Assembly (NCBI RefSeq): GCF_963506605.1
Contig: NC_083288.1
Location: 31,992,001 to 32,056,000, forward strand
DNA length: 64,000 nt
DNA from: Zootoca vivipara
Taxonomy: Eukaryota
Reading direction: 5' to 3'
In this document: positions 44,701 to 52,300 of the stretch, in pieces
How positions within the stretch are numbered: position 1 is the first letter of the stretch
Layout: each line of letters begins with the position of its first letter
Program-made: the position numbers

Positions 44701-46329
44701 AGCCATGGTCACTTCTGTTTGCGGAGGAGAGAGCACATACTAACATGACACGTGATATTGGTGGAGAACATAAAGTAATTGGCCGCTATAGACTATTATT
44801 AGAATGTATAGCACATTATATTAGAAATTATCAACAGTGCCTTCCATGCTGGATTGGGAGAAAGGATTTGACAAGGTTGGAGATTTACAGATTAAACTTG
44901 TTATGGGAGATATTTCCAAGAAATATGCAAAGTATATTGTAAACTATTTATTGCGACAGAGCCAAAAAAGAAGTTTCTAAACATTTGTTGAGAGATTATA
45001 AGGGAATAGTGGGAACCACCATGATCTTCTGCATGGGAAGGGTTCCTCATCAGATGGGACGTGAATGAATTTCTGAAAGCCAACTTGAAATGTGATGCAC
45101 ACATCTTAGTTGAAGTTGCAAGGATTTCCTTAATGTTTCCTTAATCAAGCCCAAATGCATTCATTCACTAACCTAACGTTTTCTCATATATGCTTCACTT
45201 GGTTTTCCTTATTAGTTGCTCCCTGTTATTCAGTTCAGGCCTCAGTACAATGATGTAGCATTTAGGGAAAAAGATGCAAGCCAGTAACCCAGCATTGGAT
45301 GATAAGATGCAGAAGATCTCCACAGCCACCATGTATTTTCCTTTGGTGCTCAGGTACGTTGGGACAAAAGTCAGCCAAACACTGCAAAACACCAACATGC
45401 TGAAAGTGATAAATTTGGCCTCATTGAAACTGTCTGGCAACTTCCTGGCTAGGAAAGCCAAAATGAAGCTGACAATGGCCAAGGAACCCATGTAGCCTAT
45501 GACATAGTAGAACATGATAGCTGAACCCTCATTACATTCCAGTAGCATTTCACCAGTCACTGAGTGCTTGTCCATATCTGGGAATGGAGGGAAAGTACAT
45601 AACCAAAGAGAACAAATGCCAGCTTGAAGAAAGGAGCCGGAGAGGACAATTGAATTTGCCATTCTCTTCCCCACCCATTTTCTCATTCTGGATCCTGGCT
45701 GGGTTGCCATGAATGCCAGAACCACGGTGATGGTTTTTGCCAAGGTGCTGGAAAGGGCCACAGAGAACATGATGCCAAAGGCTGTTTGTCGGAGAAGGCA
45801 GATGACCTTCCCAGGCTGTCCAATGAAGAGTAAGGAACAGAGGAAGCAAAGAAGGAGAGAGACGAGAAGGATGTAGGTGAGGGTCCTATTGTTGGCTTTG
45901 ACTATGGGAGTGTCCTTGTGCTTCACAAAAATTCCAAGTATTGAAGTTGTGATAAAGGCAAAGGAAATGGCTAAGATAGCTAAGGTGATCCCTAATGTTT
46001 CTTTGTAAGAGAGGTAGCTTACAGCTTTGGGAATGCATTGAGTTTGGTCCATATTGGGAAACTGGTCTTCTGGACATTTGACGCAGGCATCCATATCTGA
46101 AAATAGAAAAGAGCTACTTTAAATACTTCCAGAAGTTGATCATCACCTATTTAAAGGGGCGATCAGTGAGAATGAATTTCTAGGGGAAAGGGGTCCCTTA
46201 ATATCAAAATCCTTGATGTTAATTTCATCTCAAGTAAATAATACCGTATGAAACTTCTCAACCATCTACAGGTGAAACTCGGAAAATTAGAATATCATCA
46301 AAAAGTGCATTTATTCAAGTAATGCAAGG

Positions 46330-46373
<44 letters not shown>

Positions 46374-49300: not shown

Positions 49301-52300
49301 GATCCAGTCTTCCCACTTTTGCTCTAACAAAATGCATGGTAACCCATCCTGTTCCCATGAACCGCCCCCCTGCTACTGTTCAAGTAGCAGCACTATAGTC
49401 CTTTGAGAGGAAAAAATATTATAGTGGGTCAAGTGAGGGAATCTGTACCTGATGTAAGTCTACTCAAAAAAATGATGATGTGTGAAAACACCCATCCATG
49501 AATCTATCCTTCTCAATAGCATTTCCAGTGAAATATGTCAATAAGAGTTGGAGAAAGAAGAGATGAACTTAGAGTCTTTCATTTCCCCCCTGCCTCCTGC
49601 TTAGTTGCTGCCTCGTGTTCATCTCAGGCCTCAACACAATTATGTAGCATTTAGGGGAAAAGATGCAACCCAGTAAGCCAGCACTAGAGGACAAGATGGA
49701 GAAGATCTCCACAGCTACCATGTATTTTCCTTTAGTGCTCAGGTAGGTTGGAACAAAAGACAACCAAACACTGCAAAACACCAACATGCTGAAAGTGATA
49801 AATTTGGCCTCATTGAAAGTGTCAGGTAACTTTCTGGCAAAGAAAGCCATAATGAAGCTCACAATGGATAGGATGCCCATATACCCGAAGGCACAATAAA
49901 GCATGGTAGCTGAGCCCTCATTACATTCCAATATCATTTCCCCACTCAATGAGTGTATATCTATATCTGGGAATGGAGGGGAAGTACTTAACCATAAAGT
50001 ACAAATACCAGCTTGAATAAAGGAGCAGGCAAGGACAATAAAATTAGATAATCCTTTCCCCACCCATTTCCTCATCTTGCTTCCAGGTTTGGTTGCTATG
50101 AAAGCCAGGACCACAGTGATGGTCTTTGTCAGTACAGAGGAAAGGGCCAAAGAGAAGATGATGCCAAAAGCTGTTTGTCGGAGAAGGCAGGTCACCTTTC
50201 CAGGCTGTCCAATGAAGAGAAAGGAGCAAAGGAAGCAAAGGAGTAGGGATACAAGGAGGATGTAGGTGAGGGTCCTGTTGTTGGCTTTGACAATGGGAGT
50301 GTCCTTATATTTCACAAAAGTCCCAAGTACTAATGTTGTGATCAGAGAGAAAGAAATGGCCAGGATAACTAGGAGGATCCCTAAGTCTTCTTTGTAAGAG
50401 AGGTAGCTTATAACCCTGGGGATGCATCGAGTTTGGTCGTTGTTGGGATGCTGGTCTGCTTGACAACTGACACAGTTATCCATGTCTGAAATAAAAGGAA
50501 GATGTTAAGTAGTTTTGGGTGTAGCCAGATAGAATGCATCTTTCTGCTTTTTTGCAGTTCTGCATTGTGACTTAGCTGATGTGCTTACTATTTTTAAGAC
50601 ATTTTTAAGGCACAAGCCTTTCTTTCTCAGTTTTGCTCTAATCTACAATGCTGGCAATAATAATACTAATTTCTCTTGCAGGGTGGCTATAAGAGTTCTG
50701 TGGTGTTTTCTGTGGCAGTACTTCAAGCACTCACAAAGTACTTTTCACATGCCAAGAATCACTACAGCTATAAATTAGGATGTAAGGAGACAGTGATTAT
50801 AGTTCCATTTTGTGTTCTTTGTAATCAGCTCTGTTTCTGTTCTACTACAGTTCAACTTCTGTTAGTATCTTTGTTATTTGTGTTGTATAATTAGTTAATT
50901 AAGTACATAATTTCAATGCATTTCAATAGAAGATAAATGCCGAAAACAATGTAATTATTTAAATAATGTTTGCAGACCAAAAGCCATCCAAATTAGTGAT
51001 CATTAGTACTTCTTGTGGAAACTCACATCTCAAAAGCTACTAGGGGAATAGACAGCAATGTATTTTTTTAAAAAAATACAATAATAGCATTGAAAAGGAA
51101 GCTGAATCCTTCTAGGAATTCTACGTGCCAAAATACCAATGGACCAGAAGAGACTATTTATGTATGTGAGCACTGCTGTTCGGATGTTACTAGCCCAGAG
51201 ATGGGAGAAGACATAGCCCCTACCAGAGAAGAATGGCAAATTAAACTGATGGATTATGCTGAAATGGCAAAAATGACCGGGAGAATTAGAATCCAGGAAG
51301 ACCAAAATTTTAATAAGGAATGGGGAAAATATATAATTTAACTTAAAAGTCATTGTAAACAAAATTATTAGTAGGATTGGAATGACACTTGTAGTTTTAT
51401 GTTGGACTATGGTTGTAATGGAGATTTAATAGAAGTGGATTAATAGGAAGAAAAAAAGTTAGCATAAGGACCCACAAAGGGAAGGAAGGAGGTCCATGGG
51501 AATTTATGGAATTCTCTTTTTGTTTTGGTTGTTTGACAATGGTTTGTAAATCTCAAAATCTGAAAACTAAATAAATTTATTTTAAAAAAAGGAAAAAGGA
51601 GATAAAAGGAAGCTGAAACATTGTTGTTAGCCTCCACACAGAGACAGTGGTTGCAGCTACAGCCAACCATTATCACAGTTTCTGGACTAGTATCAAAAAG
51701 GTGAAGAGAACAAAACTTTCTGAACATTACTGAATACCATGTAGTCTGCTCATCTTAACCTACCTATGCAATATGATTCGTTGGTGGGTATCTCACTGGG
51801 GATCTGGCTCTAGGCATACAATAGGTTGGGAGCCAGGAGAGATCTTTCTCCGTGGCAATTGAGACCAGATATGTTTTTTGTTTGTTTTTGGACAGACATT
51901 TGACTTATAAAATTGCTGGTGCTGTTTTATGATTCCCTTTTCTTTTCTTTTCTTTATTTAAATTTATTCTTCCACAGTTATATATCCCACCATTCACTCA
52001 AGTAGTTAACCCAGGCAGCCTAAGGCAGCACATACCGTGTTTCTCTGAAAATGAGACATCCCCTGAAAATAAGCCACTGTGTTTTGTTTTGTTTTTTGAG
52101 GAAAAATAAATATAAGACGGTGTCTTGTTTTTGGAGAAACACAGTGTAGTTGGTCCTAATTCATCTTCACCATTTTATGTGGTTGATTAGAAAAATCTGT
52201 ATTGAGAATTATATTTTTGTATATTCAATGAATCACTCTCTCCCCAAAATAAATACATGAATAAATAAACTAGTAGGTCTTGTTAATGAAATTTGCTTAT

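What the first reader, a model, noticed from the sequence alone, without database searches (positions are those of the whole stretch)
45195..50485. Orphan exon 5-6 (CRD plus 7TM) cassette directly behind intact gene E: possible alternative transmembrane module
Seen: unit D lacks exons 1-3 and over half of exon 4. Its remnant begins only 240 nt after the stop of gene E on the same strand. D keeps the exon-4 donor (49230), open exons 5 and 6 and their splice sites. I see no AATAAA or ATTAAA on the minus strand between the E stop and the D remnant; the first is at 49115-49120, inside D intron 4. Known: exon phases are shared across these paralogs. Inference: E transcripts probably read into D. 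They could splice E4->D5->D6 or E5->D6 in frame, putting one ligand-binding domain on two different 7TM modules. Alternatively, use of the D4 donor within the E 3'UTR would create an NMD target. The simpler reading is that D is dead, since it carries FYC->FYY and EIFS->EIFC changes.
Basis: partly seen in the sequence, partly recalled or inferred. Interest (0 to 1): 0.65.

Follow-up and report, generated by a model that had tools for sequence, protein, structure and literature searches.

The report
Truncated vomeronasal receptor gene remnant
This is a leftover back half of a vomeronasal (type 2) receptor gene, fused by a deletion just behind an intact neighbouring gene; such leftovers are ordinary in these gene arrays, and nothing here shows it serves as a spare membrane module.

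Summary
The window holds a minus-strand tandem array of V2R (class C GPCR) units, F-E-D-C-B-A. E, C and B are intact six-exon genes and A is a pseudogene. D keeps only the last 99 of 228 nt of exon 4, plus exons 5 and 6. Its homology to four other units starts exactly at 49328, 240 nt after the E stop. D5 and D6 are open, their splice sites match those of B and C, and phases are shared.

The lack of AATAAA/ATTAAA in those 240 nt is what chance gives: 67% of such windows lack one, and only F among the six units has one that close.

D5+D6 carry 10 private substitutions and no indel, against about 38 and 6 expected if neutral over the whole D branch. The loss is therefore recent, or gene conversion is at work. 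The few private changes look unconstrained (7 nonsynonymous to 3 synonymous; codon positions 1+2 to 3 at 6:2 against 9:19 in B+C). The exon-4 stub, coding in no proposed isoform, is equally well preserved.

Older V2R fragments lie behind exon 6 of A, B and C.

Best reading: a young deletion-truncated pseudogene. E–D splicing cannot be tested without RNA.

The parts
49569..50485 (-). Exon 6 (7TM) of intact gene E, with stop TAA at 49571-49569
   Evidence: Open; acceptor ttatttcag. Pfam 7tm_3 positions 1-251 of 251, 289 bits.
49329..49568 (-). 240-nt downstream flank of E kept up to the junction. It has no AATAAA or ATTAAA.
   Evidence: No significant match elsewhere in the window. Only patchy, untested similarity to the flanks of F and A.
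49230..49328 (-). D exon-4 remnant: 99 of 228 nt, 33 codons, open. The junction lies at 49328/49329.
   Evidence: Homology to A, B, C and E all starts at 49328. No Pfam hit on its own.
48445..49229 (-). D intron 4. Donor GT at 49229-49228, TATAAA at 49190-49195, AATAAA at 49115-49120 (first canonical poly(A) signal after the E stop).
48318..48444 (-). D exon 5 (127 nt, cysteine-rich domain), open, phase 0 in and phase 1 out. Private change Tyr->Gln in the CYPGY motif.
   Evidence: Pfam NCD3G, 56.6 bits.
46097..48317 (-). D intron 5, with an interspersed repeat at 47197-46848 that recurs at 44174-43828
45195..46096 (-). D exon 6 (902 nt, 7TM), open, stop at 45197-45195. It has 8 private substitutions: 5 nonsynonymous and 3 synonymous.
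   Evidence: Pfam 7tm_3 positions 1-251 of 251, 280.1 bits.
44947..44952 (-). AATAAA 243 nt after the D stop: the likely original poly(A) signal of D

Best explanation
D is a young, 5'-truncated remnant of a V2R gene of the B/C/D subfamily.

How it arose (inferred): a deletion, or the deletion product of an unequal exchange, of at least about 5 kb removed the E–D spacer, the D promoter, D exons 1-3 and 129 nt of D exon 4. It joined E's downstream flank to the middle of D exon 4.

Current state (inferred): with no promoter, start codon, signal peptide or ligand-binding domain, D is not a gene of its own.

Why exons 5 and 6 are still open (inferred): the loss is recent relative to the age of the D lineage, and units of this array also exchange sequence.

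E transcripts (inferred): they most likely end at the AATAAA at 49115-49120, which would make the exon-4 stub part of E's 3'UTR. Rare splicing from the stub's donor into D5/D6 would give non-productive transcripts that still stop at the E stop codon.

Shown: the anatomy, the sharp junction, the substitution counts and the other fragments in the array.
For: 1. Homology of D to four other units begins at one and the same base, 49328, in mid exon 4. No exon 1-3 lies between E and D.

2. E, C and B are complete six-exon genes with open exons and canonical sites. The intact state of this unit is therefore known, and D lacks its front.

3. The low divergence of D5+D6 points to a recent event, not present function. 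They carry 10 private substitutions and 0 indels in 1026 nt. A D-private rate of 39 substitutions and 6 indel events per 1042 aligned intron-5 columns predicts about 38.4 and 5.9 (P = 5e-8 and 0.003). Yet the exon-4 stub, which is coding in no proposed isoform, has only about 1 private change in 99 nt against 3.7 expected.

4. The few D-private changes look unconstrained:
- 7 nonsynonymous to 3 synonymous. P(>=7 of 10) is 0.06 at the family's omega of about 0.2; P(<=7 of 10) is 0.40 under neutrality.
- In exon 6, codon positions 1+2 to 3 are 6:2 for D against 9:19 for B+C (Fisher P = 0.046).
- Three residues that are invariant in the other five units are changed: Tyr->Gln in exon 5, Cys->Tyr and Ser->Cys in exon 6.

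5. Sequence exchange is active in the array:
- In intron 4, D is the outlier. There are 118 D-private sites against 37 for B and 23 for C; 11 of the 118 fall in the bin that includes 12 non-homologous bases.
- From exon 5 onward the three units are about equidistant.
- 7 of the 15 B-private codon changes in exon 6 sit within 12 codons.

6. The same kind of wreckage lies behind other units:
- an exon-3 fragment starting 93 nt after the C stop (35559-35368, 34123-34061);
- exon-3 fragments behind B (19907-19615);
- an exon-6 tail copy 17 nt after the A stop (2423-2280).

7. Surveys of vertebrate chemoreceptors have a class 'truncated' for exactly this case: no proper CDS and no loss-of-function mutation (PMC10869828, passages). 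A rattlesnake V2R study sets aside 'pseudogenes and/or orphaned exons' (PMC12400810, passages).
Against: D5 and D6 are undamaged. There is no stop or indel, and all four splice signals match B and C. The Pfam match is full length, with a score equal to B6 and C6.

Relative to intron 5, D's exons changed at about 0.26 of the neutral rate, against about 0.22 for B and C (hand arithmetic on the counts). Continued constraint on D5/D6 is therefore inside the error range.

The statistics for relaxation rest on 8-10 events, are marginal (P = 0.046 to 0.09), and were not corrected for several tests.

None of the D-private residues is clearly disabling.

No transcript, population or orthologue data could be consulted.

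The 240-nt flank could not be shown to be E's original flank: blastn finds no match, and there is only patchy alignment to the F and A flanks.
Confidence: 0.7

Rival explanations
1. Alternative transmembrane module. E transcription reads through, and E exon 4 or 5 splices in frame to D5/D6. This would give a receptor with E's ligand-binding domain on D's cysteine-rich and 7TM part.
For: Phases match: 0 after exon 4 and 1 after exon 5. D5/D6 are open with intact splice sites and a full-length 7tm_3 match. No canonical poly(A) signal comes before the D stub. D5+D6 changed far less than intron 5. Read-through chimeric transcripts are documented at odorant-receptor loci (PMC3566163, passages).
Against: Phase compatibility holds for any pair in the array, so it is not specific.

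E's own exon 5 and 6 acceptors are much nearer and carry good pyrimidine tracts.

The missing poly(A) signal is what chance gives, and only F among the six units has one within 240 nt of its stop.

The exon-4 stub is coding in no such isoform, yet it is as well preserved as D5/D6.

D-private changes lean towards neutrality.

Paper searches for V2R or Vmn2r with read-through, chimeric transcripts or orphan exons returned no such case. Of the 5 papers those searches listed, only PMC3566163 and PMC12400810 were opened, and only as passages. The searches cover only the held library.
Confidence: 0.05
2. Unproductive 3'UTR splicing. A sizeable share of E transcripts use the strong D4 donor (CAG|GTAAGA, 340 nt past the E stop) and splice to D5 and D6. 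This would put exon junctions far downstream of the stop, so that E output is lowered by nonsense-mediated decay.
For: The donor, the D5 acceptor and donor, and the D6 acceptor are all intact. The donor lies upstream of the first AATAAA at 49115-49120. The homologous AATAAA is intronic in B. It is presumably bypassed there, but B expression was not examined. That junctions more than about 50 nt after a stop trigger decay, and that a bound donor can suppress a nearby poly(A) site, is recalled knowledge and comes from no call.
Against: The 'exon' from the E6 acceptor to the D4 donor would be 1256 nt (50485-49230). That is long for exon definition in vertebrates (recalled). The AATAAA 109 nt past the donor has a GT/T-rich stretch after it and could simply end the transcript. 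There are no RNA data.
Confidence: 0.15
3. Assembly misjoin at 49328/49329. D would really be a complete gene, and its front was lost or misplaced by the assembler.
For: Tandem arrays of 80-97% identical units are hard to assemble. B, C and D differ by only 2-3% in exon 6.
Against: There is no N or gap anywhere in the window. The two sides of the junction share no repeat through which a collapse could happen: the E flank matches nothing else in the window. The junction lies in unique flank on one side and in mid exon on the other. Comparable fragment junctions occur behind A, B and C.
Confidence: 0.05
4. 'Headless' receptor. An independent transcript starting in the E flank would be translated from an in-frame ATG just upstream of the junction, through D4-stub, D5 and D6. 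The product would be a cysteine-rich-domain plus 7TM protein without the ligand-binding domain.
For: The stub's frame is open for 18 codons into the E flank and holds two in-frame ATGs (MGTGWVTMHF-VRAKVG...). D5/D6 are open and in phase.
Against: An ATG within 18 open codons is expected by chance in roughly a quarter of cases (hand estimate). No promoter evidence was sought, and none can be had here. The product would lack a signal peptide ahead of a disulphide-rich extracellular domain (inference). The joined product was deliberately not built or searched.
Confidence: 0.03

Closest known systems
'Truncated' V2R genes and 'orphaned exons' recorded in chemoreceptor surveys (PMC10869828, PMC12400810; passages read)
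   Same: It is a V2R piece with no loss-of-function mutation, no proper coding sequence, and no position at a contig edge. It sits inside a tandem V2R array.
   Different: Here the junction is mapped to the base and lies 240 nt behind an intact same-strand gene. The surveys do not discuss such neighbourhoods in the passages I read. Their supplements, which may list such cases, were closed.
Read-through chimeric transcripts at odorant-receptor loci (PMC3566163; passages read)
   Same: An upstream gene's transcript continues and splices into a downstream chemoreceptor exon on the same strand.
   Different: Those cases were seen in RNA. Most are out of frame or involve UTR exons, and the authors call one a byproduct of erroneous splicing. 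Here there is no RNA evidence at all.
Clustered protocadherin / UGT1A architecture (recalled, from no call)
   Same: One locus combines variable and shared exon modules by splicing.
   Different: Those loci have many alternative first exons, each with its own promoter, joined to shared 3' exons. It would need skipping of a complete terminal exon.
Calcium-sensing receptor, the nearest solved structure (7dd5 and others)
   Same: D exon 6 aligns over residues 2-294 with E = 4e-82. Class C 7TM motifs such as PKxY are present.
   Different: D has no Venus-flytrap domain. This is only a fold reference, not a functional analogue.

Membership tests
V2R / class C GPCR gene (complete receptor) | 7TM domain of family 3 GPCRs (Pfam 7tm_3) | tested here: met
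   D exon 6 matches profile positions 1-251 of 251 at 280.1 bits. B6 scores 279.6 and C6 281.0.
V2R / class C GPCR gene (complete receptor) | Cysteine-rich linker (Pfam NCD3G) | tested here: met
   D exon 5 matches profile positions 2-38 of 54 at 56.6 bits.
V2R / class C GPCR gene (complete receptor) | Venus-flytrap ligand-binding domain (Pfam ANF_receptor, encoded by exons 2-4) | tested here: not met
   There is no exon 1-3 match between 49329 and 49568 or elsewhere in unit D. The 33-codon stub has no Pfam hit. In E, exons 2 and 3 carry ANF_receptor.
V2R / class C GPCR gene (complete receptor) | Exon 1 with start codon and signal peptide; own promoter | tested here: not met
   Exon 1 is found for A, B, C and E only. 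The promoter was not tested.
'Truncated' chemoreceptor gene as defined in PMC10869828 | No loss-of-function mutation in what remains, no proper CDS, not near a contig border | tested here: met
   All three D pieces are open with canonical sites. The front is missing. There is no N in the window, and the junction is more than 14 kb from either window end.
Alternative 3'-terminal exon cassette | Reading-phase compatibility between upstream exons and the cassette | tested here: met
   Phase is 0 after exon 4 and 1 after exon 5 in E, C, B and D. This is not specific, because all units share it.
Alternative 3'-terminal exon cassette | Transcripts that join E exons to D exons | not testable with these tools
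   No transcript or read collection for this organism is on hand.
Alternative 3'-terminal exon cassette | Purifying selection on the cassette after it lost its own front | tested here: inconclusive
   Few changes overall: 10 against 38 expected. Those few are 7 nonsynonymous to 3 synonymous, and 6:2 by codon position. The exon-4 stub, coding in no proposed isoform, is preserved just as well.
3'UTR intron / decay-prone isoform | Usable donor and acceptor more than about 50 nt downstream of the stop codon | tested here: met
   The donor at 49229 lies 340 nt after the E stop, and the D5 acceptor at 48445 is intact. Actual use is not testable. The 50-nt rule is recalled.

The most novel reading that the evidence does not exclude
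E and the D remnant form a two-ended gene. Read-through transcripts of E splice exon 4 or 5 in frame to D5/D6, so one ligand-binding domain is displayed on two different cysteine-rich/7TM modules. Since V2R signalling and partner choice depend on the 7TM part, this would let one chemical specificity feed two signalling or pairing contexts. It would be a route by which deletion debris in receptor arrays is recruited as alternative 3' modules.
Probability: 0.05. Interest if true: 0.6.

Novelty: new member of a known kind. Interest (0 to 1): 0.15.

Why it matters
As it stands the finding matters little. It is one more truncated unit in a birth-and-death receptor array.

It is still a cleanly mapped example. 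It has a base-exact junction, intact sister genes for comparison, and an internal control: the exon-4 stub. That control shows why an open, well-conserved orphan exon is not evidence of use.

It also warns annotators. An exon-chaining gene predictor could wrongly join E exons to D5/D6, or call D a partial gene.

If RNA data did show in-frame E–D joins, this would be a new way of diversifying class C chemoreceptors.

Tried and rejected
1. Did the deletion remove E's poly(A) signal? Rejected. The other units have their first canonical signal anywhere from +97 to +1189. At the site of F's AATAAA, the MAFFT alignment shows no such hexamer for A, D or E. That flank alignment is weak (mean column identity 48%).

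2. Can E's 240-nt flank be matched to the flanks of B, C or D? blastn with 7-nt words found nothing better than E = 0.5. Only patchy blocks line up with F and A, so homology is unproven.

3. A global three-way alignment of whole units was too disturbed by insertions in intron 5. I replaced it with segment alignments. From I used only five well-aligned blocks (1270 of 5100 columns) for the neutral rate. I dropped the columns covering D 47727-47456, where C is misaligned, and all gapped stretches.

4. Do FYC->FYY and EIFS->EIFC mark death? Rejected as weak.

5. Is a palindrome at the junction the cause of the break? F has a 23-nt-arm inverted repeat in its flank. In E only short arms were found, 60-100 nt from the junction. 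Not pursued.

6. The exon-6 tree does not resolve B, C and D (52% support).

7. Literature searches for V2R/Vmn2r read-through, chimeric transcripts or orphan exons gave no V2R case.

All searches were exon by exon.

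Full report
**What the window is**

All long open frames with receptor-like translations lie on the minus strand. Mapped exon by exon, they form a tandem array of vomeronasal type-2 receptor (V2R, class C GPCR) units.

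Pfam, run on single exons of E and D, gives these matches:
- ANF_receptor on E exons 2 and 3;
- NCD3G on E and D exon 5;
- a full-length 7tm_3 match on E and D exon 6.

The exon-5 copies of B and C (NCD3G) and the exon-6 copies of A, B, C and F (7tm_3) match likewise.

The window has no N. I do not take it for human. It holds three intact V2R genes and retroelement debris, including a reverse-transcriptase fragment and an element with SCAN, protease and integrase domains. From recall, that mix suggests a squamate reptile, but no tool here can name the organism.

**State of the neighbouring units**

E is intact. Its exons are:
- exon 1: 57474-57215
- exon 2: 56074-55783
- exon 3: 54361-53501
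- exon 4: 53135-52908
- exon 5: 52449-52323
- exon 6: 50485-49569

All are open, all have AG/GT borders, and they sum to 2685 nt. C and B are intact in the same way, at 2688 nt each.

A is a pseudogene. It has length changes in exons 3 and 5 relative to the others and a split exon-3 frame. A retroelement sits in its intron 2.

F runs off the window. Only its exons 5 and 6 are present.

**Check of the observation**

Every structural statement holds.
- The E stop is TAA at 49571-49569.
- blastn of the D region against the window shows that homology to C, B, A and E begins in all four at the same base, 49328, in mid exon 4.
- Exon 4 is 228 nt in E, C and B. D keeps its last 99 nt (49328-49230).
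- The D4 donor is CAG|GTAAGA.
- D exon 5 (48444-48318) and D exon 6 (46096-45195) are open, with the same acceptor and donor sequences as B and C.
- Phases are shared.
- No AATAAA or ATTAAA lies in the 240 nt between the E stop and the stub. The first is at 49115-49120, in D intron 4.
- The FYC->FYY and EIFS->EIFC changes are real and private to D.

**What is not beyond chance**

The missing poly(A) hexamer is unremarkable. 1069 of 1594 (67%) 240-nt windows of this strand lack both hexamers. In the six units the first canonical hexamer after the stop lies at +982, +342, +1189, +243, +449 and +97 for A to F.

E transcripts probably do run into the stub, since nothing canonical stops them earlier. 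A long hexamer-free flank is normal here, however, and does not point to a special arrangement.

**How D arose**

The junction is sharp. One side is a flank that matches nothing else in the window. It shows only patchy, untested similarity to the F and A flanks. The other side is the middle of an exon.

In C, the distance from the start codon to the homologous point is 3.2 kb, and the spacers between units are 2.5-6.6 kb (coordinates). I therefore infer that at least about 5 kb were lost.

A deletion, or the deletion product of an unequal exchange, explains this. A tandem duplication with the same breakpoints would instead leave a copy lacking its 3' end upstream of a full copy (inference).

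A misjoin by the assembler is unlikely, because the two sides share no repeat and there is no gap. Only reads can settle it.

**Is the cassette under selection?**

I aligned B, C and D by segment and counted sites private to each.

*Rate of change.* In five well-aligned blocks of intron 5 (1042 ungapped columns), the private counts are:

| Unit | Private substitutions | Private indel events |
|---|---|---|
| D | 39 | 6 |
| B | 64 | 6 |
| C | 84 | 8 |

At D's rate, D5+D6 (1026 nt) should carry about 38 substitutions and 6 indels if neutral for the whole D branch. They carry 10 and 0 (P = 5e-8 and 0.003).

D5/D6 were therefore constrained for most of that branch. Relative to intron, D's exons changed at about 0.26 of the neutral rate, against about 0.22 for B and C (my arithmetic on those counts). 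That fits a full-length, functional D that lost its front only recently. My rough estimate is about 5% of the branch, with a range of 0 to about a third. It fits continued use equally well.

- The 10 changes are 7 nonsynonymous to 3 synonymous. P(>=7 of 10) is 0.06 at omega 0.2; P(<=7 of 10) is 0.40 under neutrality. C has 3:8, and B+C have 13:17.
- In exon 6 they fall 6:2 on codon positions 1+2 against 3, compared with 9:19 in B+C (Fisher P = 0.046).
- The exon-4 stub, coding in no proposed isoform, is preserved as well as D5/D6: about 1 private change in 99 nt, with 3.7 expected at the intron rate and about 1 at the D5/D6 rate.

All of these rest on very few events.

*Sequence exchange.* This can also keep orphan exons open.
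- In intron 4, D is the clear outlier: 118 private sites against 37 for B and 23 for C. Eleven of the 118 fall in the bin that includes 12 non-homologous bases.
- From exon 5 onward the three units are about equidistant. C and D are identical over the 3' 92 nt of exon 5. Their only exon-5 difference is D's Tyr->Gln codon.
- The exon-6 tree does not resolve them.
- 7 of the 15 B-private codon changes in exon 6 cluster in 12 codons.

**Are the D-private residues disabling?**

Not evidently. Against the calcium-sensing receptor (E = 4e-82), the new Tyr faces Phe, the new Cys faces Ala, and the new Ala in LLAC faces Ala.

D6 scores 280.1 bits against 7tm_3, next to 279.6 for B6 and 281.0 for C6.

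The case rests instead on the missing front and on the pattern of change.

**Context in the array**

Fragments behind exon 6 are the rule here.
- An exon-3 piece starts 93 nt after the C stop (35559-35368, open for 64 codons, about 51% identical to E; a further piece lies at 34123-34061).
- Exon-3 pieces lie behind B (19907-19615).
- A copy of the exon-6 tail lies 17 nt after the A stop (2423-2280).

These older, decayed fragments show the usual fate of such remnants.

Published surveys treat them as a class:
- 'truncated' in PMC10869828 (passages);
- 'pseudogenes and/or orphaned exons', set aside in PMC12400810, where 998 candidate V2Rs were filtered to 687 (passages);
- snake V2R pseudogene transcripts are reported as expressed in PMC3590772 (passages).

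**How it most likely works**

*Shown.* The donor of the stub lies 340 nt after the E stop. An AATAAA followed by a GT/T-rich stretch lies 109 nt further on. D5 and D6 are spliceable. D has its own AATAAA 243 nt after its stop.

*Inferred.* Most E mRNAs end near 49100, with the stub inside their 3'UTR. Some may splice stub–D5–D6 and end at D's signal, still stopping at the E stop, and would be prone to decay (recalled rule).

In-frame E4–D5 or E5–D6 joins would have to skip E's own nearer acceptors: 457 nt against 4.5 kb, and 1.8 kb against 6.2 kb.

The stub's frame is open 18 codons into the flank with two ATGs. I regard this as chance.

Chimeric read-through transcripts are known at odorant-receptor loci (PMC3566163, passages). 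Searches for a V2R case found none.

**Limits**

The homologue searches in large protein sets, the metagenome and viral collections, and paper supplements were closed. No eukaryotic genome or RNA collection was on hand.

Orthologues, population data and expression therefore stay unchecked. The supplements of PMC10869828 and PMC12400810 may list how common truncated V2Rs are.

**Verdict**

The feature is real and accurately described. It is most likely a young deletion-truncated V2R pseudogene of a well-known kind (confidence 0.7). The alternative-module idea is not excluded, but it is unsupported (about 0.05). Interest is low.

Noticed in passing
35368-35559 and 34061-34123 (minus); also 19615-19907: Exon-3 fragments of a V2R lie just behind the stops of C (starting 93 nt after it, open for 64 codons) and B. 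The start of this fragment is shared by the flanks of B, C and D, so it predates their split.
   Followed up: partly
2280-2423 (minus): A decayed copy of the exon-6 tail (TM6-TM7 region, 41% identical to E) lies 17 nt after the stop of unit A.
   Followed up: no
8303-11324 (minus), inside intron 2 of unit A: Three long ORFs of a retroelement carry a SCAN domain, a retroviral protease and an integrase zinc-binding domain, but no reverse transcriptase in these ORFs. Unit A also has frame-breaking length changes in exons 3 and 5.
   Followed up: partly
21594-21629 (minus), B exon 6 codons 75-86: 7 of the 15 B-private codon changes in exon 6 cluster within 12 codons. This looks like a short gene-conversion tract from another paralogue. 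The donor was not sought.
   Followed up: no
48445-49229 versus 45195-48444 (minus): The history is mosaic. In intron 4, D is far from B and C (about 108-118 private sites), while B and C are close to each other. From exon 5 onward the three units are about equidistant.
   Followed up: partly
about 24953-25010 and 38651-38700 (minus): In B and C a long (ATT)n microsatellite directly precedes the exon-5 acceptor and stands where the pyrimidine tract should be. D, E and F lack it.
   Followed up: no
60018-60068: An inverted repeat with 23-nt arms (91% complementary, 5-nt loop) lies about 200 nt after the F stop. The alignment places a weaker counterpart in E's flank, shortly before the E–D junction.
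   Followed up: partly
49569-49595 (minus): E's C-terminal tail departs from the other five units over the last codons and is 5 codons longer (…[10 protein letters not shown] against …IRKTK).
   Followed up: no
46848-47197 and 43828-44174: The same roughly 350-nt interspersed repeat (89% identical) sits in D intron 5 and in the D–C spacer. A more distant copy lies at 15423-15727.
   Followed up: no
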